NCBI GenBank assembly: GCA_002380425.1
Contig: DFUR01000013.1
Coordinates: 554-64,553 of the forward strand
Reading direction: 5' to 3'
Length of the DNA stretch: 64,000 bases
Origin: Bacteroidales bacterium UBA4181
GTDB lineage: Bacteria > Bacteroidota > Bacteroidia > Bacteroidales > UBA4181
The notes below the pieces were generated by a model. It was not told the DNA's origin. It searched no databases and saw only the letters and a list, made by a program, of their open reading frames with translations. Positions 3,635-57,325 of the stretch are shown one piece after another (position 1 is the first letter of the stretch; every line of letters starts with the position of its first letter). Both the position numbers and the translations under genes were made by a program.

Positions 3635-3704
3635 TTGCATTCGGAAATGCTTCTGTGGCAATGTTCTGGAAGATGCCGCGCCAGAGAGCTAAACGTTTGG
3701 CGAT

Positions 3705-7857: not shown

Positions 7858-7938
7858 GGGCCGGGATTGCCCTGGCTGCCGGGATTTGAGCCGTTTTGTG
7901 TATCTTTGTCCTGTATCAACCAACCTTTGCCCCCGTTT

Positions 7939-9078
7939 ATGAAGAAATATCTTGTCACCGGCGGAGCCGGTTTTATCGGAGCCAATTATGTCAAGTACCT
8001 GCTGCACACCTATGCTGATGTGAACCTCGTCGTGCTGGATGCCCTGACCTATGCCGGAAACTATCGTACCATCGAGCAGGATGTGGATGGGGAACGTTGT
8101 TGCTTCGTCAAAGGTGACATCTGCGACCGTGAATTGGTGGACCGTATCTTTGAGGAGCATGGAGTGCAGGTGGTGGTAAATTTTGCTGCGGAGAGCCATG
8201 TGGACCGGAGTATCGAAAACCCACAGCTTTTCCTGGTTACCAACATTCTGGGCACGCAGAACCTGTTGGATGCTGCTCGCCGTCACTGGGTAACGGGCAA
8301 GGATGCGCAGGGATATCCCCAATGGAAACAGGGTGTGCGTTTTCATCAGGTTTCGACCGATGAAGTGTATGGCAGCCTGGGTGAGGAGGGATACTTCACC
8401 GAAGAGACCCCCCTGGATCCGCGAAGCCCTTACAGTGCCTCCAAAACCAGTGCAGACCTCTTTGTCCGGGCTTATGTGGAAACCTTCAAAATGCCGGCGA
8501 CCATCACCCGTTGTTCCAACAACTACGGGCCATATCACTTTCCCGAAAAATTGATCCCCTTGATTATTAAGAACATTCTGGAGGGAAAGCCCCTCCCGGT
8601 GTACGGTAACGGGAGCAATGTCCGTGATTGGTTGTATGTGGAGGACCACTGCAAGGCTATAGAAATGGTCGTGCGTAAGGGGCGTCCTGGCGAAGTGTAC
8701 AATGTGGGAGGACACAACGAGATGCAGAATCTGGAGATTGTGAGAATGGTGATTGCCAATATCCGCAGCATTATGGACCGGGAGCCGGGTTATCGGGAGG
8801 TATTGAAAAAGAAGGAATACAATGCCCAGGGAGAGATCCGCACCGACTGGATCAACGAAACCCTCATCACGTTTGTGGCCGACCGGCTGGGGCATGACCA
8901 GCGATACGCTATTGACCCCACCAAGATTACCGGCGAACTGGGCTGGTATCCTGAAACCCGCTTTGCACAGGGCATTGTCCAAACCATCTACTGGTATCTG
9001 GATCATCAGGATTGGGTGGATGAAGTGACCAGCGGCTCGTACCAGCAGTACTACCAGCAGATGTACACAGACCGGTAA
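7939..9078 (+). CDS. rfbB: dTDP-glucose 4,6-dehydratase
   Basis: 'MKKYLVTGGAGFIGANYV', 'YSASKTSADLFVRAY' (YxxxK) and 'NNYGPYHFPEKLIP'. I prefer ATG at 7939 over the TTG-initiated track ORF at 7867. Confidence 0.95.
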   Translation: MKKYLVTGGAGFIGANYVKYLLHTYADVNLVVLDALTYAGNYRTIEQDVDGERCCFVKGDICDRELVDRIFEEHGVQVVVNFAAESHVDRSIENPQLFLVTNILGTQNLLDAARRHWVTGKDAQGYPQWKQGVRFHQVSTDEVYGSLGEEGYFTEETPLDPRSPYSASKTSADLFVRAYVETFKMPATITRCSNNYGPYHFPEKLIPLIIKNILEGKPLPVYGNGSNVRDWLYVEDHCKAIEMVVRKGRPGEVYNVGGHNEMQNLEIVRMVIANIRSIMDREPGYREVLKKKEYNAQGEIRTDWINETLITFVADRLGHDQRYAIDPTKITGELGWYPETRFAQGIVQTIYWYLDHQDWVDEVTSGSYQQYYQQMYTDR

Positions 9079-10607: not shown

Positions 10608-10617
10608 CCGTACTGTT

Positions 10618-13089: not shown

Positions 13090-13095
13090 TTTCGC

Positions 13096-14145: not shown

Positions 14146-14146
14146 T

Positions 14147-14998: not shown

Positions 14999-15037
14999 CC
15001 AATATTTCCAACATCCCATCAATACACATCCGTTTTC

Positions 15038-16255
15038 ATGAAGGACGATATTCTGATTAAGTGTGACAAAGTTTCCAAAAAGTTTTGCAAGGACTTCAAA
15101 AGGTCTCTTTGGTATGGTTTCAAGGACGTGTGCAGCTCTTTTACGAGGGGGAATCCCAATCCGGAGCGGCTCCGTAAGGACGAGTTCTGGGCGCTCAAGG
15201 ACATTTCTTTTGAACTGCGCAGAGGGGAATGTCTGGGCCTGATTGGGCACAACGGGGCAGGGAAGTCCACCCTGCTCAAGATGCTCACGGGTTTGATCAA
15301 GCCCGATGAGGGCTCCATCACCATGCGGGGGCGCATCGGCACCATGATCGAGTTGGGTGCCGGATTCAATCCCATCCTCACGGGGCGGGAGAACATTTAT
15401 AACAACGGCGCTGTACTGGGTTTCAGCAAGGAAGAGATTGATGATAAGTTTCAGCAAATCGTGGCTTTCTCGGAGATAGGGGAATTCATTGATAGCCCGG
15501 TGCAGAATTACAGCTCCGGGATGAAGGTTCGTCTGGGATTTGCCGTGGCAGCCCAGATGGAGCCCGATGTGTTGCTCGTTGACGAGGTGCTGGCAGTAGG
15601 CGACCTAGGCTTTGTTATTAAGTGCCTCAACCGCATGGGAGAACTCATTCCCAACACGGCCACCATCTTTGTCAGCCACAGTATGCCCATGATTTCCCGG
15701 ATTTGTTCCCAAGTGCTGCTGATGGACAAGGGGAAAACACTATTTCATTCCAATGATATAGCGGAGGGCATTGCCAAGTATATCAATATGTTTGAATCTC
15801 CTCAGAGGATCAATCAGGGAAGTGGGGAGATAGAGTTAGCGTCCATCGCGATACACGATCCCAGAACAGGCCGCATGGTGCAGGATGACTCTGCCGTCCT
15901 GACCACCTACGATGACCTTGATATGGAGGTGACCGTCAAGATCGCCCCCTCAGTAGGAACATTTCACTTGTTTTTAACCACTTTTGACGCTCAGCTCAGG
16001 GAGGTGATGTCCTCAGGGTCCAATATTAACGGGGCGGCATTTGTGAACAACGGGACGGAGGTGCGCAAGTTTCAAATCAAGATTCCGCATCAGGTATTGG
16101 CTACGGCCAAATACAGCATCACTTTTGGTGCCACCAACCCGGATACCAAGGCTTTTTACTGCCGGGTGACCAACAGTATCTACTTTACAATGAAGGCCGG
16201 TGCTGCTACCTGGGCTTGTTCGGTAATCCCCGGTGAGTGGAAAGAACAAAACTAA
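15038..16255 (+). CDS. wzt: Polysaccharide ABC transporter ATP-binding protein with a C-terminal Wzt_C-like beta-sandwich extension
   Basis: Walker A 'GHNGAGKST', signature 'YSSGMKVRLGFA' and Walker B 'VLLVDEVLAVGD'. About 150 extra C-terminal residues follow ('GEIELASIAIHD...KYSITFGATNPD...IYFTMKA'). Confidence 0.9.
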   Translation: MKDDILIKCDKVSKKFCKDFKRSLWYGFKDVCSSFTRGNPNPERLRKDEFWALKDISFELRRGECLGLIGHNGAGKSTLLKMLTGLIKPDEGSITMRGRIGTMIELGAGFNPILTGRENIYNNGAVLGFSKEEIDDKFQQIVAFSEIGEFIDSPVQNYSSGMKVRLGFAVAAQMEPDVLLVDEVLAVGDLGFVIKCLNRMGELIPNTATIFVSHSMPMISRICSQVLLMDKGKTLFHSNDIAEGIAKYINMFESPQRINQGSGEIELASIAIHDPRTGRMVQDDSAVLTTYDDLDMEVTVKIAPSVGTFHLFLTTFDAQLREVMSSGSNINGAAFVNNGTEVRKFQIKIPHQVLATAKYSITFGATNPDTKAFYCRVTNSIYFTMKAGAATWACSVIPGEWKEQN

Positions 16256-16260
16256 TCGGA

Positions 16261-17364
16261 ATGAACCCAGTATATGTAACCCAGCCAGCTCTTCCTCCTC
16301 TGGATGAATACACCCAGATGCTGGAGCAGATTTGGAGCCAAAAGATACTCACCAACAACGGTCCCTTTCACCAGGAGTTTGAGCAGGAGCTGTGCCGGTA
16401 TCTGGGGGTGGAGCATCTCTCAGTGTTTTCCAACGGCACCCTTGCCCTGATGACAGCACTGCAAGCGCTGCGTATCGTGGGCGAGGTCATAACTACTCCG
16501 TTCAGTTTTGTGGCGACCACGCATTCCCTGTGGTGGAACAACATCAAGCCGGTGTTCGTGGATGTGGAGCCTGAGTATTTCAATCTGGACCCGGACCGCA
16601 TTGAAGCAGCCATTACCCCGAGAACCACAGCCATCATGCCGGTGCATGTGTACGGGAATCCGTGCTACATGGAACGCATCCGCGAAATTGCCGACACCTA
16701 TGGGCTCAAAGTCATTTATGATGCAGCCCATGCTTTTGGCGTTCGCAGGAACGGACATTCTGTGCTGGAGTACGGGGATATGTCCATCCTTAGCTTTCAT
16801 GCCACCAAGGTATTCAGTTCCATTGAGGGAGGGGCCATCGTGTGCCGCAGTGAGGTTATGAAAAAAAGGATTGACCACCTCAAGAACTTTGGGTTTGCCA
16901 ATGAAACCACTGTCATAGAGCCGGGCATCAATGCCAAAATGAATGAGTTTCAGGCAGCTTTTGGTTTGCTTCAACTCCGGTATGTGGATGGATATATTGC
17001 ACGGAGAAAAGAAATTGCTGAGACCTATCGCTCCGGGCTTAGGGATGTTGCCGGGATTCGGTGTATGGAGGACATCCCGGGGGTGCGCCACGGTTATCCA
17101 TATTTCCCGGTATTTGTGGATGCCGCGCAATATGGAATGAGCCGTGATGATCTATACGAAAAGCTGAAGCAACATCAAATTTTTGGACGTCGTTATTTTT
17201 ATCCGCTCATCAGCCAATTCCCCACCTACAGCGGGCTGAGTTCCGCCCGGCCTGAAAATCTTCCGGTTGCAGAGCAGGCAGCCCGTCAGGTATTGTGCCT
17301 CCCGATTTTTCCGGAGCTCTCTCTGGAAAAGGTGGCAGAGATTCTATCCATCATTAAGTCTTGA
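16261..17364 (+). CDS. DegT/DnrJ/EryC1/StrS-family NDP-sugar aminotransferase
   Basis: 'GDMSILSFHATKVFSSIEGGAIV' contains the PLP lysine motif SxHxxK, and 'NAKMNEFQAAFGLLQL' is also present. I prefer ATG at 16261. Confidence 0.85.
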   Translation: MNPVYVTQPALPPLDEYTQMLEQIWSQKILTNNGPFHQEFEQELCRYLGVEHLSVFSNGTLALMTALQALRIVGEVITTPFSFVATTHSLWWNNIKPVFVDVEPEYFNLDPDRIEAAITPRTTAIMPVHVYGNPCYMERIREIADTYGLKVIYDAAHAFGVRRNGHSVLEYGDMSILSFHATKVFSSIEGGAIVCRSEVMKKRIDHLKNFGFANETTVIEPGINAKMNEFQAAFGLLQLRYVDGYIARRKEIAETYRSGLRDVAGIRCMEDIPGVRHGYPYFPVFVDAAQYGMSRDDLYEKLKQHQIFGRRYFYPLISQFPTYSGLSSARPENLPVAEQAARQVLCLPIFPELSLEKVAEILSIIKS

Positions 17365-22243: not shown

Positions 22244-23377
22244 ATGAGAAATATTTGTTTTGTTACCCCCCACATGCCGGCTCCCACGGAAACCTTTATC
22301 CGGGCGCACATGGAACGCATCCGGGGGAATGTATTTCATCTGTACAGCTACAATCTGGATTATGCCACCCAAGGGGTACCCCTGAGAGAGTTGTATCCTG
22401 AAAAACGCCCGTCCTGGTATCGTTGGCTGCATCTGTTGCCCTATCACTGGGTGTTTCGGTTCTACCACCGCAAAAGGGAGGAGCGCTCGGATTTTGCTCT
22501 GGCATCCAGATACCTCAGGGAGCACTCTATTAACCTGGTGTTTGCGGAATTTGGGACAGCAGGAGCTGTGGTGGCTCCGGTGTGTGCCTCCCTGAATATC
22601 CCTATGGTGGTGTATTTTCTGGGTTTTGAGTCCACCCGTAAGGATATTGTGGAGGAGTTCCGCGAACGGTATCAATTTCTTTTCCGCTATGCTTCCGTTG
22701 TATTTGTGGTAGCGCGCAGGATGGCCGAGGACCTTGTAGCCTTAGGCTGCCCTGCTGAGAAAATTGTGTACAACCCTTGTGTACCCCATCCGGATTATCT
22801 CAAGGTCTCTGCCGATTATCATTCCAATACCCTGGTGGCCATTGGGCGACAAACCCTGAAGAAAGCGCCCTATCTCACCTTGCTGGCTTTTTACGAGGCT
22901 CAGAAGGTGTATCCTGAGTTGAGACTGGTGATGATCGGGGAGGGTGAGCTTCAGGAAATCAATACCCGTATAGTGCGGGCCCTTCATCTGGAGGATAAAG
23001 TATCCCTGCGTCCCTTTCAAACCAGGGAGCAGATTCTGGAGCAGATGGGAGACACCCTGATGTTTGTGCAACATTCCCTCATGGCAGCTAACGGCGATAG
23101 TGAAGGGACTCCTGTGGCCATCCTGGACGCTATGGCGTCGGGGGTTCCGGTGGTGGCTACCCGCCACTACGGCATCATGGATACGGTGGTGGATGAGGAA
23201 ACCGGCTTGTTGTGCGATGAGGGGGACCTGGAAACGATGATCAGGAATATCCTCCGCATCGCAGGTGACCGAAGACTTGCAGCACAACTGGGCCAGAACG
23301 GGCGCAGAAGGGTGACAGATTTATACACCATGGACCGTCATATCAGCTTGATTGAAGAAAAACTTAAGGGACTATGA
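22244..23377 (+). CDS. GT4 (GT-B, group 1) glycosyltransferase
   Basis: 'EGTPVAILDAMASGVPVVATRHYGIMDTVVDEETGLL' is the EX7E region. Confidence 0.85.
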   Translation: MRNICFVTPHMPAPTETFIRAHMERIRGNVFHLYSYNLDYATQGVPLRELYPEKRPSWYRWLHLLPYHWVFRFYHRKREERSDFALASRYLREHSINLVFAEFGTAGAVVAPVCASLNIPMVVYFLGFESTRKDIVEEFRERYQFLFRYASVVFVVARRMAEDLVALGCPAEKIVYNPCVPHPDYLKVSADYHSNTLVAIGRQTLKKAPYLTLLAFYEAQKVYPELRLVMIGEGELQEINTRIVRALHLEDKVSLRPFQTREQILEQMGDTLMFVQHSLMAANGDSEGTPVAILDAMASGVPVVATRHYGIMDTVVDEETGLLCDEGDLETMIRNILRIAGDRRLAAQLGQNGRRRVTDLYTMDRHISLIEEKLKGL

Positions 23378-24801
23378 CCGATAAAACCATCGGTAATGCA
23401 TTCCTGCAATCGGCTTTGGCCGATCAGGCCGCTTTTATGTCTTTGCCTCAGTTTCTGCAGTGGATGGAAGAGAAAAAGCAAGCCACCTGCCACCGTATTA
23501 CCCCGATTGCTTTTGCAGACATGAAACAATGGCACTTTCACCCTCAAACGGGGAATCTGGAGCATCAAACGGGGAAATTTTTCAGCATCGAAGGGGTGCA
23601 CATCCGGACCAACTGGGATACGGTCAAGGAGTGGTCGCAGCCCATCATCAATCAGCCGGAGATTGGCTTCCTGGGCATTATTGCCAAAAGTTTCGGGGGG
23701 GTGCTGCACTTTCTCATGCAAGCCAAGATAGAGCCGGGCAATATCAACGGGGTACAGCTTTCCCCAACGCTGCAGGCAACCCGGAGCAATTACACCCAGG
23801 TACATCAGGGCAATGCCCCGCATTATCTGGAGTATTTTATGGGCCGTGTTCCGGGCGTGAAGGTGCTGCTGGACCAGTTGCAGTCCGAGCAGGGAGCCCG
23901 CTTTTTCAGAAAGCGCAACCGGAATATCATTGTGGAAGTTGCCGGAGACATTCCTGTGCTGGAGGATTTTTGCTGGCTCACTCTGGCCCAGATCAAACAG
24001 TTGCTCTCTTTCGACAATGTGGTCAACATGGACACCCGTACGGTGATCTCAGGAATCACGTTCCGGAATGGGAATGGTTTGGTGGTGCCCGGGAACAGTG
24101 GCCGTCCGGAAGTTTTCGGTCTGTCCATGCTTGCTTCGGAACTCGATGAGGAGCATGCTTTGCACACCATCGAGGAGGTTATATCCTGGATTACAAGGCA
24201 CAAATCCCTCGCCGAACTCGAGGTGGAGCGGGTACCCCTCAGCAGGGTGCAACACTGGGTCCGGGACAGCCATGCCATCTACCACGAGGATCATAAATAC
24301 TTCTCCGTCATCGCGGTTCAGGTTGAAATTGGGAACCGGGAGGTGCGGAATTGGACCCAACCTTTGGTACAGTCCGCCCAGGAGGGGATTATGGGCTTTA
24401 TTGTCAAGAATATAAACGGAGTGTACCACTTTCTGGTGCAGGCCAAAATGGAAGCCGGGAATCTGGATATCATCGAGCTGGCACCCACGGTGCAATGCCT
24501 CACGGGCAACTACCGCAAGGGACTCAATGAGTACGAGGTGCCTTTCCTGGATTATTTCCTGCATCCGGAACAACACCAGACACAGGTGCTGTTGTCCACC
24601 ATGCAGTCCGAGGAAGGAGGCCGATTTTACCGGGAACAAAACCGAAATATGATTGTGGAAGTGGGGGAGGCTTTTTCCCCGGAGGTCCCGGAAAAATACA
24701 TCTGGATGACCCTCCACCAGATCAAAACCTTTATACGTTTTAATAATTATCTGAACATCCAGGCCCGCAGCCTGTTGTCGGCTATAAGGTTTGTGTCATG
24801 A
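23374..24801 (+). CDS. NDP-hexose 2,3-dehydratase (EvaA/TylX3/OleV family)
   Basis: 475 aa with an internal duplication. 'GFLGIIAKSFGGVLHFLMQAKIEPGN...QSEQGARFFRKRNRNIIVEV' pairs with 'GIMGFIVKNINGVYHFLVQAKMEAGN...QSEEGGRFYREQNRNMIVEV', which is characteristic of the two-Nudix-like-domain dehydratases. Confidence 0.8.
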   Translation: MTDKTIGNAFLQSALADQAAFMSLPQFLQWMEEKKQATCHRITPIAFADMKQWHFHPQTGNLEHQTGKFFSIEGVHIRTNWDTVKEWSQPIINQPEIGFLGIIAKSFGGVLHFLMQAKIEPGNINGVQLSPTLQATRSNYTQVHQGNAPHYLEYFMGRVPGVKVLLDQLQSEQGARFFRKRNRNIIVEVAGDIPVLEDFCWLTLAQIKQLLSFDNVVNMDTRTVISGITFRNGNGLVVPGNSGRPEVFGLSMLASELDEEHALHTIEEVISWITRHKSLAELEVERVPLSRVQHWVRDSHAIYHEDHKYFSVIAVQVEIGNREVRNWTQPLVQSAQEGIMGFIVKNINGVYHFLVQAKMEAGNLDIIELAPTVQCLTGNYRKGLNEYEVPFLDYFLHPEQHQTQVLLSTMQSEEGGRFYREQNRNMIVEVGEAFSPEVPEKYIWMTLHQIKTFIRFNNYLNIQARSLLSAIRFVS

Positions 24802-25757
24802 AGAAGATTCGCATTGGGGTGCTGGGCTGTGCCCGGATTGCCCGTCGTTCGGTGATTCCTGCCATGCAGCAGGTGGAAGCGTTGCAGTTGGTTGCCGTGG
24901 CCAGCCGCACCAAGGATAAGGCGCAGGAGTTTGCCACGCAGTTTGGATGTGAGGCGTTGGAGGGATACCAGTCCTTGCTGGACCGGGCCGATATTGATGC
25001 CATTTATATGCCTTTACCTACCGGCTTGCATCAGGAATGGGTGCTGCGTGCCCTGGAGGCGGGAAAACATCTGCTGGTGGAGAAATCGCTGGCCTCCGAT
25101 TATGCTTCTGTTCTGGAGATGGTCGCCATGGCCCGGAAGCGGAGCCTGCTGCTGATGGAGAATTTTATGTTTCTATACCACGGACAGCACCAGTATATTC
25201 GGTCCCTGCTTCAGAACGGGGAAATCGGGGCGTTGAGATGCTTCCGGAGTTCGTTTGGGTTTCCTCCACTGGAACCCGGGAATTTCAGGTATGACAAAGC
25301 CTTGGGCGGGGGAGCGCTGCTGGATGCCGCAGCCTATACCGTGCGTGCCAGCCAGTTATTTCTCCCAGGCCCGCTGCAGGTCCGGGCTTCCACCCTCCAT
25401 GTCAATGAACAGGGCGTGGATCTGTATGGCAGTGCCTTTCTGGTGAACCCAGACGGCCTGAGTGCTGAGGTCGCCTTTGGTTTTGACAATTTTTACCAGT
25501 GTAATTATGAACTCTGGGGCAGCAAGGGTAAAATCACTGCCGAAAGAGCCTTCACCCCCGGGCCTGATTTTTCACCAACGATATTGCTGGAGCAGCCGGG
25601 GCGTTGCGAAAGGATACAACTCCCGGCTGAAAATCATTTCACGGCCCTGTTGCAGGAGTTTTGCCGGTGTGTTCAACATCAGGACGGAGCCTCCAAGTAT
25701 TCCGAAGTGTTGGAGCAAAGCCGATTGCTGGATGAGATAAAAAATCAGAACCCGTGA
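24798..25757 (+). CDS. Gfo/Idh/MocA oxidoreductase, candidate NDP-hexose 3-ketoreductase
   Basis: 'IRIGVLGCARIARRSVIPAM' is the N-terminal Rossmann segment and 'EKSLA' is the EKP-like motif. It is translationally coupled (ATGA) to the 2,3-dehydratase. Confidence 0.7.
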   Translation: MKKIRIGVLGCARIARRSVIPAMQQVEALQLVAVASRTKDKAQEFATQFGCEALEGYQSLLDRADIDAIYMPLPTGLHQEWVLRALEAGKHLLVEKSLASDYASVLEMVAMARKRSLLLMENFMFLYHGQHQYIRSLLQNGEIGALRCFRSSFGFPPLEPGNFRYDKALGGGALLDAAAYTVRASQLFLPGPLQVRASTLHVNEQGVDLYGSAFLVNPDGLSAEVAFGFDNFYQCNYELWGSKGKITAERAFTPGPDFSPTILLEQPGRCERIQLPAENHFTALLQEFCRCVQHQDGASKYSEVLEQSRLLDEIKNQNP

Positions 25758-26659
25758 GCCAAAGTCTTGTATTGGGTGCCCATGGTTATTTGGGCCGACA
25801 CATGGCGCATTATCTAAGAATGCGCGGGGAGTATGTGATGACGTGCGACATAGCTCCTGCACCGGTGGATGCCTCGGTTCCCTACGTTCAGGCAGATGTG
25901 GCCAATGCGGCATCGGTTGCCTCTCTGGATTTTGATGTGGATTTTATCTATGTGTTCAGCGGCCTCACCGGGACGGAAGTTGGGTTTGAACGGTATCGTG
26001 ATTTTGTGGAGGTGAACGAAATAGGCTTGCTGAATATTCTGCAGCACCACAGAGCCTCCGGGAGCCGTGCCAGGATTGTTTTCCCTTCGACCCGTCTGGT
26101 GTACAAGGGCAAACAAGGAGCACTCCTGACCGAAGACAGTGAGAAGGAGGCCCTCACCCCCTATGCACAGAACAAATTGTCGTGTGAGGCCTTCCTGAGT
26201 ATGTATCAGCGGTTGTTCGGGATTGAGTTTACGGTGTTCCGGGTGTGTGTACCCTACGGAAATGAGTTTCAGGGGGCCTATTCCTACGGCACTGTGGGAT
26301 TCTTCCTGCAGCGAGCCATGAGCCAACAGCCACTGGAACTCTTTGGCGACGGAAGCCTGCGCAGGACTTTTACCCATGTGCTCGACATCTGTTGTCAGAT
26401 GGCTCTTGCTCTGGAGCATCCTGCTTCGCGGAATGTGGTGCTGAATGTGGGGGGCGAGAACCTGAGCCTGATGGAGGCTGCTACATTCATCGCAGAGGCA
26501 GCCGGAGTCGAGGTACGTACGGTACCTTGGCCTCCCCGTGCCTGGGCCCTGGAATCTGGAGATACAGTCTTTGATGCATCCAGAATGGAAGCACTCACCA
26601 AGCCGCTCACAACCCATTCCTATGCAGATTGGGTGCAGCATTTGTTTTCTGAACGGTAA
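25754..26659 (+). CDS. Extended SDR (NAD-dependent epimerase/dehydratase family), candidate NDP-4-keto-hexose reductase
   Basis: 'LVLGAHGYLGRHMAHYL' (GxxGxxG) and 'YAQNK' (YxxxK). GTG start in a GTGA overlap with the upstream gene. Confidence 0.7.
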   Translation: MSQSLVLGAHGYLGRHMAHYLRMRGEYVMTCDIAPAPVDASVPYVQADVANAASVASLDFDVDFIYVFSGLTGTEVGFERYRDFVEVNEIGLLNILQHHRASGSRARIVFPSTRLVYKGKQGALLTEDSEKEALTPYAQNKLSCEAFLSMYQRLFGIEFTVFRVCVPYGNEFQGAYSYGTVGFFLQRAMSQQPLELFGDGSLRRTFTHVLDICCQMALALEHPASRNVVLNVGGENLSLMEAATFIAEAAGVEVRTVPWPPRAWALESGDTVFDASRMEALTKPLTTHSYADWVQHLFSER

Positions 26660-26677: not shown

Positions 26678-27409
26678 ATGATGTTTTCTGTGGTGATTCC
26701 GCTCTACAACTGCGCCCGCTTTGTGCCCGAACTGACGCAGCGTTTGATTGATGCTCTATCCCGGATAACTCAGGATTTTGAAATCCTCTATATCAACGAT
26801 GCCAGCACTCAGGACGACTGGTCTCAGGTGGTCCTGGTAAGCGCATCGGATGTCAGGGTTAGGGGCATTAACCTGTCGCGAAACTTTGGACAACATTGCG
26901 CCATATCGGCTGGTTTGTCTTTTGCCACAGGGGAATGGGTAGTGGTTATGGACGGGGATCTGCAGGATCGACCAGAAGAGATTCCGGCTTTGTATCAAAA
27001 AGCCATCGAAGGCTTTGATATTGTTCTGGCTCAACGCATTCAGCGCCGGCATTCGGTGATAAAACGTCAAGGGTCCAGGTTGTTTTACGCTGTATTGGCC
27101 TATTTGACTGACACAGAGCAGGACGCATCGGTAGCTAACTTTGGCATCTATCACGCTAAAGTGGTGCGGGCCATCCTGTCCATGAAGGACTATTCCCGGT
27201 ATTTCCCGACGATGGTCAAATGGGTAGGATTCCGTAGTGCCAGAATGCCTGTGGAACATGCACTCAGGCCGGAAGGTACCGGAAGCTACCATTTCCATGC
27301 CCTGTTGCGCCTGTCCTTTTTCCCTTCCGCCGTCCATCAAAGGAAAACCGAAGAGGCATCATCACCACATTTATACATCCCGATGAACCCAGGAGACGGG
27401 AGTTGCTGA
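26678..27409 (+). pseudogene. GtrB/ArnC-like polyprenyl-phosphate glycosyltransferase lacking the C-terminal membrane anchor (truncated paralog of 27887..28855)
   Basis: It aligns by eye with the downstream paralog ('LSRNFGQHCAISAGL' vs 'LSRNFGQQYALQAGL'; 'DGDLQDRPEEIPALYQKAIEGFDIV' vs 'DCDLQDRPEEIPGLLRKAQEGFDVV') up to about 'GTGSYHF'. After that it diverges and stops, without the two TM helices seen in the paralog. Confidence 0.5.
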
Positions 27410-27882
27410 ATCGGTTGGCTCAGGCGGGATGCGACGTGCAGAATGTGACGGGAAAATACAGCCCACAGGAGATATCCGAGCTTTATGGACATATTCGCAT
27501 CCTGATCAATATACATCAAACAGAGGCTCACCACACGTTTGAAGAACTGCGGGTGTTGCCTGCACTGCTTTGTGGGGCCATCGTAATCAGTGAAGATTCT
27601 CCATTAAGGGAGACCGTTCCCTATTCCAAATTCATCCTGTGGTCCGATATGGAGCATATCGTACCATTTGTTCGTGAGGTGGAAAAGAATTATGACAAAT
27701 ATTTCGATGCCCTTTTTTCTTCGTCTGATTTCGAGCAGGTCGTTGAACAGATGCATGCAAGGAACGAAGAACAGGTTCACAAAGGTTTGAGCAGTCTCAA
27801 TAGGCCTCGTTCCACACAAATGTGGTCAGTGGCCTCAGGCAGAATACGCCGGTGTTTTGACCGGCTCCTGGCCCGGATTTAA
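27340..27882 (+). pseudogene. C-terminal fragment of a GT-B-like glycosyltransferase (no ATG; track ORF starts at TTG 27403)
   Basis: This frame is open from 27238. From about 27350 it reads 'RRGIITTFIHPDEPRRRELLNRLAQAGCDV...ELYGHIRILINIH...FEELRVLPALLCGAIVISE'. That resembles the C-terminal half of CgeB/GT1-like proteins such as 46784..47803, but it has no N-terminal half. Confidence 0.4.
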
Positions 27883-27886
27883 CCCA

Positions 27887-28855
27887 ATGGTCAGCAATGG
27901 CACAAAATCAATGCTTATGAAGGAACATGTTGCATTATCCGTGGTGAGCCCGGTGTACAAGTCCGAGGCGTTGGTTGGCCCCTTGGTGGAGCGCATCATT
28001 GCTGCAGTAGAACCCTTGCAGTTGCGGTACGAGATTATTCTCGTTGAGGATGCTGGCCCGGATCACTCCTGGGACAGAATTGTGGAGCATGCCCGAAAAT
28101 ATCCACAGGTTCGGGGGCTGAGACTGAGCCGGAATTTTGGACAGCAATATGCGTTACAGGCTGGACTTGATGCGAGTCAGGGAGATTGGGTGGTGACTCT
28201 GGATTGTGATCTTCAGGACAGGCCCGAGGAGATTCCCGGATTACTCCGTAAGGCGCAAGAGGGGTTTGATGTGGTGGCTGCTCACCGGGGACACCGGCAG
28301 GATGAGTGGCTTAAACGGTTCGCCTCACGCACTTTCTATCGCTTGCTGGGATACCTTACCGGAACTGCTTTGGATGGGGGCGTTGCGAATTTTATGTTGT
28401 ACCGCAGGAGTGTGGTGGATGCGATGGCTCGTTTTCACGATTACCATCGTTATTACCCCATGCTGCACAAACTTGTGGGATTTCGGTATGCACTTGTTCC
28501 CATTGAGCACGCCGAAAGGCCTCAGGGACGTTCTTCTTATTCTTTCCGCAAAAGAATCCGTCTGGCACTTTCGACGATTCTTTCTTTCTCCGATAAGCCC
28601 CTTCGGCTTGCTGTGAAACTTGGAGTAGTCCTGTCTGCGCTTTCCCTGTTGACGGCCATAGTGCTTGTTGTTCTGTATTTTGCCAGCGATGTGCACGTGG
28701 ACGGCTGGGCCAGTCTTGCCCTTCTGCAGAGTTTCTTTTCCGGAGCCATCATCACGGTATTGGGTATGGTGGGTTTGTATGTGGCCAGTATTTTTGAGAG
28801 TGTCAAGGAGCGTCCCACTTACCTGGTTTCGGGCAGGGTGAATTTTGATGAATAA
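27887..28855 (+). CDS. GtrB/ArnC-like polyprenyl-phosphate sugar synthase (GT2 with two C-terminal TM helices)
   Basis: 'LSVVSPVYKSEALVGPLVERI', 'DCDLQDRPEEI' and the C-terminal helices 'LGVVLSALSLLTAIVLVVLYF' and 'FFSGAIITVLGMVGLYVASIF'. The start is uncertain (27887, 27911 or 27917). Confidence 0.85.
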   Translation: MVSNGTKSMLMKEHVALSVVSPVYKSEALVGPLVERIIAAVEPLQLRYEIILVEDAGPDHSWDRIVEHARKYPQVRGLRLSRNFGQQYALQAGLDASQGDWVVTLDCDLQDRPEEIPGLLRKAQEGFDVVAAHRGHRQDEWLKRFASRTFYRLLGYLTGTALDGGVANFMLYRRSVVDAMARFHDYHRYYPMLHKLVGFRYALVPIEHAERPQGRSSYSFRKRIRLALSTILSFSDKPLRLAVKLGVVLSALSLLTAIVLVVLYFASDVHVDGWASLALLQSFFSGAIITVLGMVGLYVASIFESVKERPTYLVSGRVNFDE

Positions 28856-31115
28856 AAGGAATTCCATAAAACTGCTTCTTGCTCTTGGAGTATTTGTTCT
28901 GATATTTTCGGGGCTGATTCTCCACAGATACAGGGAGGCTCTTAACTTGAACTACGTGTACCTCAAGGTCTCAGGGACGGAGAGTCCGCTGTCCGTTCAA
29001 GGAGAGACAAATCTTGGGGCAATCGTTGATTTTGCTCAGAATCAGAATTTGATATGGACTTTGCCCCAGAATGAGAACCGGGCGTTGGTTCGTATCATGG
29101 TTCATGCTCCGGGTTCGGCCGCAGACTCCTCTCTGAGGATTGCTTTGGCGGAATCTCCCAGGCCGGCTTACGACGAATCGCAGTTGTGGTTTCGCCCACA
29201 CTCACACTTGCTTGTGGAGCACGGAGAGGTGTCTGCTTCACAACGGAGGAGCATCCTGCCAGCGTACCACAATGTTCTGAACTGGAAGGGTGATGTACGT
29301 CTTGTTCTTTCCCCCTTACTTGTTGCATCTCTCATAACCATCGTTTTGATTGCCTTCCTGTTCCCGCAGGCTGCGGCTGAAGCGCGAGAGTGGATTGGCT
29401 CAATACTTGGGAAATGTGAGACGCCGTTCTACTGGCTGTATCTGATTGCATTCCCTTTGTATGGATTGTTTCGGGGAGTTGACTTAACTGATGTGCCCTA
29501 TGTGCTGAATCACTACAGGTTTTTTCCCGAAACGAACCCCTTGTTCTACCTCTCCTCCATGCTGGGAAACCTCTGGATAAAACTGGCCGGAAACGGAATT
29601 CTGGCCTCCAGAATATTATATCTTATTCTGTTGTGGTCCATGATGTTGATCATATATTCCGCCCTGATGAGAAAAGTGCCCCGCCGGATACTGCTTCAGG
29701 GGTTGGTCGTCATGATGTCCTCGATTGTTACAGCATCTGCCTACTCTCCATCGCTTGACTCTCTGTCGCTTTTGTTGCTGCTGGCTCAGTTTGTGTGCAT
29801 TTCAGGATACCTGGAGCAGGGCAGGAGCGGGATGTTGGTGGTGTATGGTTTGGTGTCTGGATTGCTCACCTTGGTGCGTTTCCCGGGAATCGCTACTATA
29901 GGGATTCCCTTCATCATTTGGGCAGTGATGCTTATCGAGAGCCGCTGGTCACGAACCCCTTTGCGGAGTGTGCACCCTGCCAGAGATGCGCTGTTTCTCC
30001 TGCTGCCTTTTGCTTGCGTTATAGCGTCTTTCCTGCTGTTCGCTCCGGGTTACAGCCTCACAGCGGTCTGGGATGCCATAACCCACTTGCTGGCGAATGA
30101 CAGAAACCATTCTCTGGATGCCATCACGTCCATGTATGCTCATGACTTTCAAATGTACGTACGGAACTTTATCTTCCTTGGGGTGGGTTGTGGTGTATTT
30201 GCACTTCTGAGAAGGTTTCCAAGCATTGTCCGATGGGCATTTCTATTATTGTTCTACGCCTGGATGGTTTGGTATGTATGGGCAAACAGAGGCCCGCATA
30301 TCCCATTCGGTATGGTGGCATTTTTCAGTTGTGGCATCCTGCTGCTTTTGCTGGTGATGTTGCTTCACCTGGAATGGCATCGCTATCGGTTCATTGTACT
30401 GACCTTGCTTGTAGGTTTTGTCTTTGTGTTTGTCCCCATTCTGGGTTCAGCTACCGGGTTTTTCAAAATGAGGCTTTTCCTCTCTGTTTATGCTGTCTTT
30501 TTGTGGGCTTTGATGCACCGTGTGGCTGCTGATGGGAACAGAGTCGGCTATTTTAAACCATTTTTTGGGGTGTTTGTTCTTGTCTTGGTTCTTTCCTCCC
30601 TGGTTTTCAGGCTGGGATTCGTTTACGGAGATACCGCTCCTGTGCGCACCATGACCGAGTATTCATCTTTGCCTCAGTTACATGGCATCAGAATTTCACA
30701 GGTGCGCAAACATTATCTGGAGGATACTCTGGATCGATTGTGCCGCCATGTCGGGAGTTCGCAAGACCTGGTTCTCTATGGACGTCCAGGTCATATGTTT
30801 TATTACTTGTTACAAAGAAAAAGTCCGGTTCTCCAGAATTTCGAACTCGATTGTGATTCAGTGCATCTTCAGGTTCTGGAGCAATTCTTTGCCGAGGGAC
30901 ATCTGCCCGTTATCGGGATTCTGCATGGGGAACCTCACGCACATTCCTTTCTTCCGCCTAACCCCTTGTCACCCCCGAAACCAACTGAGGATCAAAAAAA
31001 ATTGATTGATATGTTGCAACAAAGAGGTTACCGGATTGTGGAAGAAACAGGCTACATGGTTCTGCTTCTCCCCGAGACCAGTCTTGCCCCTCACATGCCC
31101 ATCCCCATCCCATGA
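28848..31115 (+). CDS. Large polytopic membrane protein, GT-C (ArnT/PMT-like) glycosyltransferase candidate
   Basis: About 755 aa with at least 12 hydrophobic helices. It has an acidic first-loop candidate 'FRGVDLTDVPYV' and a soluble C-terminal domain of about 150 aa. It overlaps the GtrB-like stop. Confidence 0.6.
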   Translation: MNKRNSIKLLLALGVFVLIFSGLILHRYREALNLNYVYLKVSGTESPLSVQGETNLGAIVDFAQNQNLIWTLPQNENRALVRIMVHAPGSAADSSLRIALAESPRPAYDESQLWFRPHSHLLVEHGEVSASQRRSILPAYHNVLNWKGDVRLVLSPLLVASLITIVLIAFLFPQAAAEAREWIGSILGKCETPFYWLYLIAFPLYGLFRGVDLTDVPYVLNHYRFFPETNPLFYLSSMLGNLWIKLAGNGILASRILYLILLWSMMLIIYSALMRKVPRRILLQGLVVMMSSIVTASAYSPSLDSLSLLLLLAQFVCISGYLEQGRSGMLVVYGLVSGLLTLVRFPGIATIGIPFIIWAVMLIESRWSRTPLRSVHPARDALFLLLPFACVIASFLLFAPGYSLTAVWDAITHLLANDRNHSLDAITSMYAHDFQMYVRNFIFLGVGCGVFALLRRFPSIVRWAFLLLFYAWMVWYVWANRGPHIPFGMVAFFSCGILLLLLVMLLHLEWHRYRFIVLTLLVGFVFVFVPILGSATGFFKMRLFLSVYAVFLWALMHRVAADGNRVGYFKPFFGVFVLVLVLSSLVFRLGFVYGDTAPVRTMTEYSSLPQLHGIRISQVRKHYLEDTLDRLCRHVGSSQDLVLYGRPGHMFYYLLQRKSPVLQNFELDCDSVHLQVLEQFFAEGHLPVIGILHGEPHAHSFLPPNPLSPPKPTEDQKKLIDMLQQRGYRIVEETGYMVLLLPETSLAPHMPIPIP

Positions 31116-32489: not shown

Positions 32490-32490
32490 T

Positions 32491-39756: not shown

Positions 39757-39757
39757 G

Positions 39758-41773: not shown

Positions 41774-41778
41774 AAAAC

Positions 41779-57211: not shown

Positions 57212-57325
57212 GGGAAATGATGATTCAAGTTTATGCATAACAAAGGTAGAAAATCTTTTGTGGATGTGGCACAAAATCTCAGAATGGTTACCTTTGAAGC
57301 AACAGTAATTGTATTTTCTTAGATT

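What the first reader, a model, noticed from the sequence alone, without database searches (positions are those of the whole stretch)
23374..26659. Complete dTDP-2,6-dideoxyhexose branch inside a Bacteroidota-type surface-glycan operon
**Seen in sequence.** Three ORFs are chained by 4-nt ATGA/ATGA/GTGA overlaps.
- The first is a 475-aa protein with a clear internal duplication ('...VLHFLMQAKIEPGN...QSEQGARFFRKRNRN' and '...VYHFLVQAKMEAGN...QSEEGGRFYREQNRN'). This is the two-domain architecture of NDP-hexose 2,3-dehydratases.
- The second is a Gfo/Idh/MocA oxidoreductase.
- The third is an extended SDR with GxxGxxG and YxxxK motifs.

**Established knowledge.** RmlA and RmlB (present at 6991..9078), followed by a 2,3-dehydratase (EvaA/TylX3/OleV/SpnO), a Gfo/Idh/MocA 3-ketoreductase (KijD10/OleW/SpnN type) and a 4-ketoreductase, make up the known route to dTDP-2,6-dideoxyhexoses. 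That route has been characterised almost entirely in actinomycete natural-product pathways. True 2-deoxy-6-deoxy hexoses are very rare in bacterial polysaccharides.

**Inference.** This locus installs a 2,6-dideoxy sugar into a cell-envelope glycan. With one of the two aminotransferases, the product could instead be a 3-amino-2,3,6-trideoxy sugar.
Basis: partly seen in the sequence, partly recalled or inferred. Interest (0 to 1): 0.8.

Follow-up and report, generated by a model that had tools for sequence, protein, structure and literature searches.

The report
Dideoxy-sugar pathway in surface-glycan locus
Three overlapping genes in a large cell-surface polysaccharide locus of a probable Bacteroidota bacterium very likely make a 2,6-dideoxy sugar by a route studied until now only in antibiotic producers. 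The same gene set turns out to be common in Bacteroidota, and here it lies next to genes that could deliver the sugar on a lipid carrier.

Summary
ORFs 23374-24801, 24798-25757 and 25754-26659 are chained by ATGA/ATGA/GTGA overlaps.

- **ORF1** is a two-domain NDP-hexose 2,3-dehydratase (EvaA E 7.5e-116; both catalytic Glu kept).
- **ORF2** is a KijD10-type 3-ketoreductase (E 2.5e-79; Lys/Tyr kept; no WbpB-type match).
- **ORF3** is an extended SDR that acts at sugar C-4. Its 4-ketoreductase role is inferred from context, not from its closest solved relatives, which are 4-epimerases.

RmlA and RmlB pass equivalog cut-offs.

1. The gene set is widespread: at least 552 species genomes, mostly Bacteroidota, including cultured Bacteroides.
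2. After dehydratase and 3-KR, loci carry either the ORF3-type SDR (20) or a DesI-like C-4 aminotransferase (18), never both (45 loci).
3. A GtrB/ArnC-type polyprenyl-phosphate glycosyltransferase (27857-28855) travels with the SDR-type module. In this window an orphan ArnT-like GT-C (28845-31115) follows it, which suggests lipid-carrier delivery.

The 3-amino-sugar alternative is not supported. Digitoxose in the Tannerella forsythia O-glycan is a precedent within the phylum, and I found no report of its genes. This is a new member of known kinds and is moderately interesting.

The parts
6991..7857 (+). RmlA, glucose-1-phosphate thymidylyltransferase. It supplies dTDP-glucose.
   Evidence: NCBIfam TIGR01207 at 461 bits, above the equivalog cut-off of 360.65.
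7867..9078 (+). RmlB, dTDP-glucose 4,6-dehydratase. It makes dTDP-4-keto-6-deoxyglucose, the substrate of ORF1.
   Evidence: NCBIfam TIGR01181 at 464 bits, above the cut-off of 365.
16237..17364 (+). DesI-like dTDP-4-keto-6-deoxyhexose C-4 aminotransferase. It is a possible competing branch leading to viosamine or to a 4-amino-2,4,6-trideoxyhexose.
   Evidence: Best PDB match is DesI 2po3 at 2.4e-64. TIGR04427 scores 303 bits, below the cut-off of 650. It is 39-49% identical to the aminotransferase that directly follows dehydratase and KR in 18 of 45 related loci.
22244..23377 (+). GT4-family glycosyltransferase whose stop overlaps the ORF1 start (ATGA). It is a candidate direct user of the dTDP-sugar.
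   Evidence: Pfam Glycos_transf_1 at 4.3e-26; junction sequence. No orthologue was found beside the module in other loci.
23374..24801 (+). ORF1: dTDP-4-keto-6-deoxyglucose 2,3-dehydratase (EvaA/TylX3/OleV family).
   Evidence: Two Hexose_dehydrat domains, E 9.7e-158. EvaA 4j7g at E 7.5e-116, with 51% and 41% identity in the two domains. E120 and E172 correspond to EvaA E139 and E190 and are invariant in 17 homologues.
24798..25757 (+). ORF2: dTDP-3,4-diketo-2,6-dideoxyhexose 3-ketoreductase (KijD10 type, Gfo/Idh/MocA).
   Evidence: KijD10 3rbv at E 2.5e-79 and 42% identity over 313 residues; the next structure scores 6.7e-36. K96 and Y180 correspond to KijD10 K102 and Y186. A homologue lies next to the dehydratase in 44 of 45 loci.
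25754..26659 (+). ORF3: extended SDR acting at sugar C-4. The inferred role is dTDP-4-keto-2,6-dideoxyhexose 4-ketoreductase.
   Evidence: Epimerase PF01370 at 6e-31. S112, Y137, K141 and GxxGxxG are invariant. The AF2 model has pLDDT 94 and its Foldseek neighbours are C-4 epimerases, 4,6-dehydratases and Rmd. Homologues (40-51% identity) lie beside dehydratase and KR in 20 of 45 loci and never together with the DesI-like aminotransferase.
26678..27409 (+). Truncated paralogue of the GtrB/ArnC-type GT2: catalytic domain only, with no membrane helices. Probably a gene remnant.
   Evidence: 47% identical to residues 27-238 of the intact copy, then the similarity ends. No TM segment and no C-terminal remnant downstream. 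NCBIfam PgfS and ArnC match only its N-terminal 210 residues.
27403..27882 (+). 159-aa fragment that resembles the C-terminal half of a GT1-type glycosyltransferase. Probably a remnant.
   Evidence: Weak Glyco_trans_1_2 match at 2e-4. No TM segments and no NCBIfam match.
27857..28855 (+). GtrB/ArnC-type polyprenyl-phosphate glycosyltransferase. The inferred role is undecaprenyl-phosphate dideoxyhexose synthase. The true start is probably an internal Met near residue 19-21.
   Evidence: GtrB 5ekp at 1.2e-57 and ArnC 9hwj at 1.8e-55, both over the full length. C-terminal TM helices. Orthologues (49-62% identity) are embedded inside the dehydratase-KR-(methyltransferase)-GT2-SDR cassette in about 20 loci.
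28845..31115 (+). Orphan 756-aa polytopic membrane protein with a GT-C (ArnT-like) fold. The inferred role is a periplasmic transferase that uses the lipid-linked sugar. The ATG at 28848 overlaps the end of the preceding gene by 8 nt.
   Evidence: About 12-13 hydrophobic segments and a soluble C-terminal domain. It has no Pfam or NCBIfam match of its own. Only 75 distant relatives exist among 1.84 billion representatives, and 9 of 35 of them match PMT_2. The AF2 model has pTM 0.76, and the top 34 Foldseek PDB matches are all GT-C, led by ArnT at 1.2e-6. G211, D213, D216 and R345 are conserved.
55730..56278 (-). RmlC-like dTDP-4-dehydrorhamnose 3,5-epimerase. It could divert the 4-keto-2,6-dideoxy intermediate into the L-series.
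   Evidence: The translation reads as a typical RmlC. Identified by eye only; not scanned against any family library.
56330..57418 (-). RmlD, dTDP-4-dehydrorhamnose reductase. It is an alternative C-4 reductase.
   Evidence: Pfam RmlD_sub_bind at 1.1e-95, covering residues 77-353. The real start is probably internal.

Best explanation
The block is a biosynthetic branch for a dTDP-2,6-dideoxyhexose that feeds a cell-envelope glycan.

**Pathway.**
1. RmlA and RmlB make dTDP-4-keto-6-deoxy-D-glucose (shown by equivalog-level homology).
2. ORF1 removes the C-2 hydroxyl, giving dTDP-3,4-diketo-2,6-dideoxyglucose (strong homology; catalytic Glu pair kept).
3. ORF2 reduces C-3. It is the KijD10 type, which gives an equatorial 3-OH in the characterised enzymes (strong homology; Lys/Tyr kept).
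4. ORF3 reduces the C-4 ketone (inferred from context). The product is an olivose- or oliose-type D-sugar. If the RmlC encoded in the window acts first, the product is an L-sugar such as L-digitoxose. The stereochemistry is not resolved.

**Delivery (inferred, less certain).** The GtrB/ArnC-like enzyme at 27857-28855 would transfer the sugar from dTDP to undecaprenyl phosphate. After flipping, the ArnT-like GT-C at 28845-31115 would add it in the periplasm as a side-branch decoration to a glycan, lipid or protein acceptor. This would work like the Gtr, Arn and GacI/GacL three-component systems.
For: **Enzyme identities**
- ORF1.
- ORF2.
- ORF3.
- RmlA and RmlB.
- The four genes from the GT4 to ORF3 overlap by 4 nt, which implies co-translation.

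**Comparative genomics**
- At least 552 species genomes hold a relative of ORF1.
- Among 45 loci with full flanks, 44 have the KR next to the dehydratase. Twenty have the ORF3-type SDR, 18 have a DesI-like C-4 aminotransferase, and none has both (Fisher p = 3e-7, not corrected for phylogeny). The SDR and a C-4 aminotransferase therefore look like alternative ways of resolving the same C-4 ketone.

**Delivery route**
- Twelve of the 45 loci carry a GtrB orthologue (49-62% identity). It never occurs with the aminotransferase, and it often sits inside the sugar cassette between KR or methyltransferase and the SDR.
- Polytopic proteins lie next to the cassette in L022, L030, L033, L042 and L071; the L022 protein matches PMT_2.
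- In the window, the GtrB-like gene and the GT-C gene overlap and lie 1.2 kb downstream of ORF3.

**Context and precedent**
- In Bacteroides faecalis the triad lies in a typical UpxY-Wza-Wzz...Wzx capsule locus.
- Digitoxose occurs as a variably present branch in the T. forsythia O-glycan (PMC4030854, PMC8550257).
Against: - No biochemical data exist for any of these proteins.
- The nearest solved relatives of ORF3 are UDP-sugar 4-epimerases and 4,6-dehydratases. The only 4-ketoreductase in the Foldseek list, Rmd, ranks 44th. Asp32 after strand beta-2 suggests NAD rather than NADP.
- In the window the GtrB-like gene is separated from ORF3 by two apparent gene remnants.
- The GT-C is an orphan that is not conserved with the module elsewhere.
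- No GtrA-type flippase was found in the window.
- A GT4 gene overlaps the ORF1 start and could use the dTDP-sugar directly.
- Twelve of the 26 loci that have the SDR lack a GtrB orthologue, so lipid-carrier delivery is not obligatory.
- The exclusivity statistic is not corrected for phylogeny.
Confidence: 0.7

Rival explanations
1. The ORF1/ORF2 product (dTDP-4-keto-2,6-dideoxyhexose) is aminated at C-4 by the DesI-like aminotransferase at 16237-17364. This would give a 4-amino-2,4,6-trideoxyhexose, perhaps N-acylated by the PglD-like acyltransferases at 2969 or 4997, either instead of or in addition to the 4-hydroxy sugar. ORF3 would then have another role.
For: DegT1 is 39-49% identical to the aminotransferase that directly follows dehydratase and KR in 18 of 45 loci. 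It is DesI-like. Hexapeptide acyltransferases are present.
Against: DegT1 lies 6 kb upstream, next to the ABC-transporter genes. Its ordinary substrate, the RmlB product, is available, and that would give viosamine. The ORF3-type SDR and this aminotransferase never occur together beside the module in other loci. ORF3 is translationally coupled to ORF2.
Confidence: 0.15
2. ORF3 is not the reductase. It would be a C-4 epimerase, or it would act on another nucleotide sugar. The C-4 ketone would instead be reduced by RmlD (56330-57418) after RmlC epimerisation, giving an L-series 2,6-dideoxyhexose.
For: The best sequence and fold matches of ORF3 are 4-epimerases. RmlC and RmlD are in the window. 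L-digitoxose pathways use a KijD10-type KR, then an epimerase, then a 4-KR (PMC11167396).
Against: RmlC and RmlD lie 30 kb away on the opposite strand, and their default role is L-rhamnose synthesis. Compact cassettes such as L036 and L071 contain only dehydratase, KR, GtrB-like GT and the SDR, with no other reductase. The SDR and the C-4 aminotransferase are mutually exclusive.
Confidence: 0.1
3. One reading: a C-3 aminotransferase converts the 3,4-diketo intermediate into a 3-amino-2,3,6-trideoxyhexose.
For: There are two DegT-family genes in the window. In three loci (L061, L068, L072) a DegT gene lies between the dehydratase and a divergent Gfo gene.
Against: DegT2 is perosamine-synthase-like (3bn1 at 3.8e-91) and pairs with Gmd. 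DegT1 is DesI-like. The C-3 aminotransferase QdtB scores 20 or more orders of magnitude worse for both. A dedicated KijD10-type 3-ketoreductase is coupled to the dehydratase.
Confidence: 0.03
4. The sugar decorates a secreted small molecule (a natural product) rather than an envelope glycan.
For: Every characterised 2,3-dehydratase comes from an antibiotic pathway (PMC8987622). An ATP-grasp gene and an AMP-binding-like gene lie at the left end of the window.
Against: No PKS, NRPS or terpene genes were found among about 50 annotated genes. The context is Wza/Wzc, Wzm/Wzt, Wzy-like, WecA-like, UpxY-like and many GTs. Related loci are capsule or O-antigen loci.
Confidence: 0.02

Closest known systems
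EvaA (Amycolatopsis orientalis) and the TylX3/OleV/SpnO/KijB1 NDP-hexose 2,3-dehydratases
   Same: The same two-domain Nudix-like architecture, 41-51% identity, and both catalytic glutamates conserved.
   Different: The host is a probable Gram-negative Bacteroidota bacterium, and the gene sits in a polysaccharide locus rather than an antibiotic cluster. Activity has not been tested.
KijD10 C-3 ketoreductase (kijanimicin L-digitoxose pathway)
   Same: 42% identity over the full length, the Gfo/Idh/MocA fold, and Lys102/Tyr186 equivalents conserved. It sits directly after a 2,3-dehydratase.
   Different: The stereochemical outcome and the cofactor are unknown here. There is no adjacent 5-epimerase.
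Actinomycete dTDP-2,6-dideoxyhexose pathways (olivose, oliose, digitoxose; for example the Kij, Jad, Ole and Urd clusters)
   Same: The same logic: RmlA, then RmlB, then 2,3-dehydratase, then 3-KR, then 4-KR (PMC11167396, PMC8987622).
   Different: The putative 4-KR is closest to 4-epimerase-like SDRs among solved structures. The product is destined for an envelope glycan. The pathway is often linked to a polyprenyl-phosphate GT rather than to a GT1 natural-product glycosyltransferase.
Digitoxose branch of the Tannerella forsythia S-layer / general protein O-glycan
   Same: It is a 2,6-dideoxyhexose in a surface glycan of a Bacteroidota species. It is present as a sub-stoichiometric branch on the reducing-end sugar (PMC4030854, PMC8550257), which is what a late decoration would look like.
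   Different: The genes for it have not been reported ('encoded elsewhere', PMC6120980). I could not test whether T. forsythia has this module. A KijD10-type KR alone would not give D-digitoxose.
Three-component lipid-carrier glycosylation systems (GtrA/GtrB/GtrC; ArnC/ArnT; GacI/GacL; CsbB/YfhO)
   Same: A GtrB/ArnC-type GT2 with a C-terminal TM hairpin, followed by a polytopic GT-C.
   Different: The donor would be a dTDP-2,6-dideoxyhexose rather than UDP-Glc, UDP-GlcNAc or UDP-Ara4FN. No GtrA-type flippase was found. The GT-C is an orphan with no family assignment. The GT2 does not reach the ArnC or PgfS equivalog cut-offs.

Membership tests
NDP-hexose 2,3-dehydratase (PF03559; EvaA type) | Two tandem Hexose_dehydrat (Nudix-like) domains in one chain of about 470 aa. 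| tested here: met
   Two stretches, residues 26-227 and about 262-472; 522 bits against a cut-off of 25.
NDP-hexose 2,3-dehydratase (PF03559; EvaA type) | Catalytic Glu pair of the N-terminal pocket (EvaA E139 and E190). | tested here: met
   E120 and E172 align to them and are invariant in 17 homologues. Their role in EvaA is taken from PMC8987622.
NDP-hexose 2,3-dehydratase (PF03559; EvaA type) | Dehydration of dTDP-4-keto-6-deoxyglucose at C-2/C-3. | not testable with these tools
   The genes that supply the substrate, RmlA and RmlB, are present. The activity needs an enzyme assay.
KijD10-type sugar 3-ketoreductase (Gfo/Idh/MocA) | N-terminal Rossmann domain and C-terminal Gfo domain, with the closest relative being a sugar 3-KR rather than a WbpB/WlbA or inositol dehydrogenase. 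| tested here: met
   PF01408 and PF22725. KijD10 scores 2.5e-79 against 6.7e-36 for the next structure. WlbA/WbpB are absent from the 60 listed matches, the weakest at E 1.3e-7. All NCBIfam Gfo equivalogs fall far below their cut-offs.
KijD10-type sugar 3-ketoreductase (Gfo/Idh/MocA) | Catalytic Lys102 and Tyr186. | tested here: met
   K96 (in VEKSL) and Y180 align to them. I counted positions from the alignment, using the Y186F mutant chain to fix the numbering.
KijD10-type sugar 3-ketoreductase (Gfo/Idh/MocA) | Genetic coupling to a 2,3-dehydratase. | tested here: met
   4-nt overlap in the window. A homologue is adjacent in 44 of 45 loci.
NDP-4-keto-2,6-dideoxyhexose 4-ketoreductase (extended SDR) | Extended-SDR fold with GxxGxxG and the Ser-Tyr-Lys triad positioned for C-4 hydride transfer. 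| tested here: met
   G8, G11, G14, S112, Y137 and K141 are invariant. The model has pLDDT 94 and TM 0.82-0.87 to C-4-acting NDP-sugar SDRs.
NDP-4-keto-2,6-dideoxyhexose 4-ketoreductase (extended SDR) | The closest characterised relatives are 4-ketoreductases. | tested here: inconclusive
   The best solved relatives are 4-epimerases and 4,6-dehydratases, and Rmd ranks 44th. Known deoxysugar 4-KRs (UrdR, KijC2, EryBIV) have no solved structures, so they could not be compared.
NDP-4-keto-2,6-dideoxyhexose 4-ketoreductase (extended SDR) | It occupies the C-4-processing slot of the pathway. | tested here: met
   Twenty loci have the SDR only, 18 have the C-4 aminotransferase only, and none has both. 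Compact cassettes contain no other reductase.
GtrB/ArnC-type polyprenyl-phosphate glycosyltransferase (GT2) | GT2 catalytic domain plus a C-terminal transmembrane hairpin, with full-length similarity to GtrB and ArnC. | tested here: met
   5ekp at 1.2e-57 (residues 15-326) and 9hwj at 1.8e-55. TM segments at 255-313.
GtrB/ArnC-type polyprenyl-phosphate glycosyltransferase (GT2) | Orthology to ArnC or PgfS (NCBIfam equivalog cut-off). | tested here: not met
   205 bits against 529 for ArnC, and 200 against 500 for PgfS. It belongs to the family but is not an ArnC or PgfS orthologue.
GT-C glycosyltransferase (ArnT/PMT-like) | Polytopic membrane core with the GT-C fold and a soluble periplasmic domain. 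| tested here: met
   About 12-13 TM segments. pTM 0.76. The top 34 Foldseek PDB matches are all GT-C, with ArnT at E 1.2e-6, but TM-scores are only 0.32-0.45.
GT-C glycosyltransferase (ArnT/PMT-like) | Conserved acidic motif in the first extracytoplasmic loop. | tested here: inconclusive
   D213 and D216 (in GVDLTD) are invariant or nearly so in 35 relatives, and they follow helix 174-206 in the model. The sidedness of the loop and any catalytic role were not tested.
GT-C glycosyltransferase (ArnT/PMT-like) | Match to a curated GT-C sequence family. | tested here: not met
   The protein has no Pfam or NCBIfam match of its own. Only 9 of 35 remote relatives reach PMT_2, with a best E of 1.4e-5.

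The most novel reading that the evidence does not exclude
The 2,6-dideoxyhexose is not built into the repeat unit in the cytoplasm. Instead it is loaded on undecaprenyl phosphate by a dedicated GtrB-like synthase and attached in the periplasm by GT-C enzymes. In this window that enzyme is an orphan ArnT-like protein with almost no relatives. On this reading, the cassette of dehydratase, 3-KR, optional methyltransferase, GtrB-like GT and SDR is a widespread and undescribed Bacteroidota system for decorating surface glycans with 2-deoxy sugars. It would also be the missing genetic basis of digitoxose-type branches such as the one on the Tannerella forsythia O-glycan.
Probability: 0.35. Interest if true: 0.65.

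Novelty: new member of a known kind. Interest (0 to 1): 0.45.

Why it matters
2-Deoxy sugars are acid-labile and are easily lost in standard glycan composition analysis, so they may be under-reported in surface glycans. This work shows that the full genetic route is common in Bacteroidota, including gut Bacteroides and Prevotellaceae, and in several other Gram-negative phyla. That predicts that 2,6-dideoxyhexoses, and in a sister module 4-amino-2,4,6-trideoxyhexoses, are much more frequent envelope components than the structural literature suggests.

The work also supplies concrete candidate genes for the unexplained digitoxose of the T. forsythia O-glycan. It names cultured strains in which the prediction can be tested. 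Finally, it provides non-actinomycete enzymes that could be useful for glycodiversification.

Tried and rejected
1. I first took the 243-aa GT2 at 26678 to be the conserved module partner. tblastn showed that the true orthologue is the 332-aa gene at 27857, and that the 243-aa gene is a truncated paralogue.
2. I suspected that the 730-785-aa proteins following the GtrB-like gene in L008, L012, L013 and L017 were counterparts of the window's 756-aa protein. They are TPR-SpoIIE proteins and are unrelated.
3. The word-indexed search for the 756-aa protein returned only the protein itself. The exhaustive HMMER search was needed.
4. I looked for three things in the window and found none: a homologue of the cassette methyltransferase (L005 or L030 type), a small GtrA-type flippase ORF with three or more hydrophobic segments, and a further Wzx-sized polytopic ORF. 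Besides the 756-aa protein, only the Wzy-like and WecA-like ORFs are strongly polytopic.
5. Structure prediction and Foldseek for ORF3 did not separate reductase from epimerase.
6. The source organism could not be named. The exact proteins are in NCBI, JGI, Logan and ENA assemblies but carry no names. The best named relatives are Flavobacteriales and Vicingaceae MAGs at 67% identity.
7. I could not test whether T. forsythia carries the module.
8. Two literature queries failed because of their syntax, and two more were too broad to be informative.

Full report
**1.

The three ORFs are at 23374-24801 (475 aa), 24798-25757 (319 aa) and 25754-26659 (301 aa, GTG start) on the + strand. The junctions read ATGA, ATGA and GTGA. 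The first ATGA is shared with the stop codon of an upstream GT4 gene (22244-23377), so four genes are chained in total.

- **ORF2** has both GFO_IDH_MocA domains.
- **ORF3** matches Epimerase/PF01370. G8xxG11xxG14, S112 and Y137xxxK141 are invariant in 37 homologues.
- **RmlA** (6991-7857) and **RmlB** (7867-9078) pass the NCBIfam equivalog cut-offs.

**2. The two diagnostic enzymes**

ORF1's only solved relative is EvaA (4j7g, E 7.5e-116). Identity is 51% in the N-terminal domain and 41% in the C-terminal domain. A 2022 review reports that EvaA E139 and E190 are essential for catalysis (PMC8987622). They align with E120 and E172 of ORF1, and both are invariant in 17 homologues.

ORF2's best solved relative is the sugar 3-ketoreductase KijD10 (3rbv, E 2.5e-79, 42% identity over 313 residues). 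The next Gfo/Idh/MocA structure scores 6.7e-36. No WbpB/WlbA-type UDP-HexNAc 3-dehydrogenase appears among the 60 listed matches, the weakest of which has E 1.3e-7. KijD10 Lys102 and Tyr186 correspond to K96 and Y180 of ORF2.

**3. ORF3 is the weakest link**

By sequence, its best solved relatives are a UDP-GlcNAc 4-epimerase (6wjb, 6e-24), MoeE5, GalE enzymes and 4,6-dehydratases. A confident model (pLDDT 94.4) superposes at TM 0.82-0.87 on the same set. The 4-ketoreductase Rmd ranks only 44th. All of these enzymes transfer hydride at sugar C-4, so chemistry at C-4 is supported. Sequence and fold do not, however, separate a reductase from an epimerase.

**4. Comparative genomics settles more than structure does**

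The best 80 (53-67% identity) are mostly Bacteroidota: Flavobacteriales, Vicingaceae, Chitinophagales, Cytophagales and Bacteroidales, including Bacteroides faecalis, B. faecichinchillae and Prevotellaceae. Ignavibacteria, Verrucomicrobiota, Deltaproteobacteria, Burkholderiales and a cyanobacterium also appear.

In the 45 loci with full flanks:
- 44 have an ORF2 homologue beside the dehydratase.
- 20 have an ORF3-type SDR (40-51% identity) nearby.
- 18 have instead a DesI-like aminotransferase directly after the KR.
- None has both (Fisher p = 3e-7, not corrected for phylogeny).

The simplest reading is that the SDR and a C-4 aminotransferase are alternative ways of processing the same C-4 ketone. 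That is what a 4-ketoreductase would do. Compact cassettes such as L036 and L071 contain no other reductase. In cultured B. faecalis the order is UpxY, Wza, Wzz, WbpM-like, SDR, dehydratase, KR, Wzx, GT, which is a textbook capsule locus.

**5. The aminotransferases**

The 32407-33609 protein is perosamine-synthase-like (3bn1, 3.8e-91). Together with Gmd (13096-14145) it explains a GDP-perosamine branch.

The 16237-17364 protein is DesI-like (2po3, 2.4e-64; TIGR04427 at 303 bits, below its cut-off). That makes it a dTDP-4-keto-6-deoxyhexose C-4 aminotransferase.

Neither protein has a C-3 aminotransferase as its best match, and a dedicated 3-KR is present. The realistic amino alternative is a 4-amino-2,4,6-trideoxyhexose, because the DesI-like protein is 39-49% identical to the aminotransferase of the sister module.

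**6.

In about 20 loci the cassette reads dehydratase, KR, optional SAM methyltransferase, a GT2 of about 310 aa, then the SDR. That GT2 is orthologous (49-62% identity, full length) to the window's 27857-28855 gene. It is not orthologous to the 243-aa gene at 26678.

The 27857 protein is a GtrB/ArnC-type polyprenyl-phosphate glycosyltransferase:
- GtrB 5ekp at 1.2e-57 and ArnC 9hwj at 1.8e-55, both over the full length.
- C-terminal TM helices.
- ArnC and PgfS NCBIfam scores are well below the equivalog cut-offs, so it is a family member and not an orthologue of either.

The 243-aa gene is a truncated paralogue without TM helices. The next ORF, of 159 aa, looks like a GT1 fragment. Independent metagenome contigs show the same layout.

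**7. The 756-aa protein that overlaps the end of the GtrB-like gene**

It has no Pfam or NCBIfam match. It returns only itself in the 5.8-billion-protein index. It has just 75 distant relatives among 1.84 billion representatives, and 9 of 35 of those match PMT_2.

It has about 12-13 hydrophobic segments and a soluble C-terminal domain. A model built on 35 sequences reaches pTM 0.76. Its top 34 Foldseek matches in the PDB are all GT-C enzymes: ArnT first (E 1.2e-6), then STT3, AglB, PglB, ALG9, DPY19, AftA and Emb. TM-scores are modest, at 0.32-0.45. A GVDLTD motif (D213, D216) directly after a TM helix is conserved.

In several other loci, polytopic proteins of 413-533 aa sit directly upstream of the dehydratase. 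One of them matches PMT_2.

Taken together, these results suggest, but do not prove, the following route. The dTDP-dideoxyhexose is transferred to undecaprenyl phosphate and is then added in the periplasm by a GT-C, as in the Gtr, Arn and GacI/GacL systems.

Four points count against this:
- No GtrA-type flippase was found in the window.
- The GT-C is not conserved with the module in other loci.
- Twelve SDR-type loci lack the GtrB orthologue.
- A GT4 gene overlaps the ORF1 start and may use the dTDP-sugar directly.

**8. Which sugar?**

KijD10-type reductases give an equatorial 3-OH. L-digitoxose then needs an epimerase and a 4-KR. D-digitoxose needs a reductase that gives an axial 3-OH (PMC11167396).

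With ORF2 and ORF3 alone, a D-olivose- or D-oliose-type product is therefore expected. With the RmlC encoded at 55730-56278, an L-series sugar is possible. RmlD (56330-57418) is a back-up reductase. The stereochemistry is not resolved.

**9. Comparison with what is known**

The 2022 review lists 2,3-dehydratases only from antibiotic pathways. My text searches found no paper on these enzymes in surface glycans. The held library omits most subscription journals, so this is weak evidence of absence.

There is an important precedent. The Tannerella forsythia (Bacteroidota) S-layer and general O-glycan carries beta-digitoxose on its reducing-end galactose (PMC4030854). The branch is variably present (PMC8550257). 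The genes for that core are 'encoded elsewhere' and have not been identified (PMC6120980; a 2025 review, PMC12871550). I could not test whether T. forsythia has this module.

**10. Verdict**

The enzymes are new members of known families, and the pathway logic is known. Three things are new:
- the envelope-glycan context;
- the breadth of distribution, together with the clean split into a reductase branch and a C-4 aminotransferase branch;
- the recurrent coupling to a polyprenyl-phosphate glycosyltransferase.

Confidence that ORF1 and ORF2 act as stated is about 0.9. Confidence that the block yields a dTDP-2,6-dideoxyhexose for an envelope glycan is about 0.7. Confidence in lipid-carrier delivery is about 0.35-0.45.

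Interest is moderate. The finding is a solid and testable prediction that matters for Bacteroidota glycobiology, but it is not a new kind of system.

Noticed in passing
window 28845-31115: An orphan 756-aa GT-C-fold membrane protein. It has only 75 remote relatives among 1.84 billion representative proteins and no curated family. Its extra N-terminal region of about 190 residues is predicted with low confidence.
   Followed up: yes
window 26678-27882: Two apparent gene remnants lie between ORF3 and the intact GtrB-like gene. One is a GtrB-type catalytic domain without its TM hairpin (243 aa). The other is a 159-aa fragment resembling the C-terminal part of a GT1 enzyme. Independent metagenome contigs (L001-L004) show the same gene layout, so this is not an assembly artefact.
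   Followed up: partly
L037, L039, L041, L044, L046, L052, L056-L058, L060, L062, L064-L066, L069, L070, L076, L077, L082, L083 (about 11.4-13.5 kb in each locus): A sister module: dehydratase, 3-KR, then a DesI-like C-4 aminotransferase. It predicts a dTDP-4-amino-2,4,6-trideoxyhexose in many Bacteroidota, Deltaproteobacteria, Rhodocyclaceae and a cyanobacterium. I know of no surface glycan reported to contain this sugar class.
   Followed up: partly
L061, L068, L072: A third arrangement: dehydratase, then a DegT aminotransferase (26-30% identical to the window's), then a divergent Gfo/Idh/MocA protein (31-38%). This may be a 3-amino branch.
   Followed up: no
L005 3410-4120; L030 4173-5000; also L006, L008, L012, L013, L033, L067: A SAM-dependent methyltransferase of 235-275 aa lies between the KR and the GtrB-like gene in many cassettes. 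This suggests a methylated dideoxyhexose. The window has no homologue.
   Followed up: partly
L008 14020-16224; L012 14051-16330 and 16354-18291; L013 7837-9972; L017 14231-16588: Large TPR-SpoIIE (PP2C phosphatase) proteins flank the cassette in Flavobacteriales and Vicingaceae MAGs. This may indicate regulation of the glycan decoration.
   Followed up: no
window 13096-14145 and 32407-33609: Gmd and a perosamine-synthase-like aminotransferase lie 19 kb apart. Together they imply a GDP-perosamine branch in the same locus.
   Followed up: partly
window 1693-6927: An ATP-grasp ligase (minus strand), two PglD-like hexapeptide acyltransferases, an AMP-binding-like protein and a CapA/PGA_cap protein lie just upstream of rmlA. 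They may carry out amino-acid or acyl decoration of an amino sugar.
   Followed up: no
window 9810-16255 and 47800-53616: Wza and Wzc, an ABC transporter (Wzm/Wzt), a Wzy-like protein and a WecA-like initiating transferase all lie in or beside one co-directional gene array of about 50 kb (WecA-like on the minus strand). No Wzx-like ORF was detected. The locus may combine more than one assembly route.
   Followed up: no
window 39734-42693: A GT2 domain fused to a GT10-type alpha-1,3-fucosyltransferase (679 aa) is followed by a protein with weak similarity to FUT8. These are eukaryote-like fucosyltransferase domains in a bacterial glycan locus.
   Followed up: no
window 34872-36803 and 38749-39756: An AsnB-type glutamine amidotransferase and a polysaccharide deacetylase lie within the locus. 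The amidotransferase could form uronamides, like the ManNAcCONH2 residue of the T. forsythia glycan.
   Followed up: no
L022 12565-13080: A gene with an ORF6N domain (typical of phage and mobile elements) is inserted between the KR and the GtrB-like gene of one Bacteroidales cassette.
   Followed up: no
window 56330-57418 (minus strand): The RmlD ORF is 362 aa, but the RmlD domain starts at residue 77. The real start is probably internal. rmlD and rmlC lie on the opposite strand, 30 kb from rmlA and rmlB.
   Followed up: no
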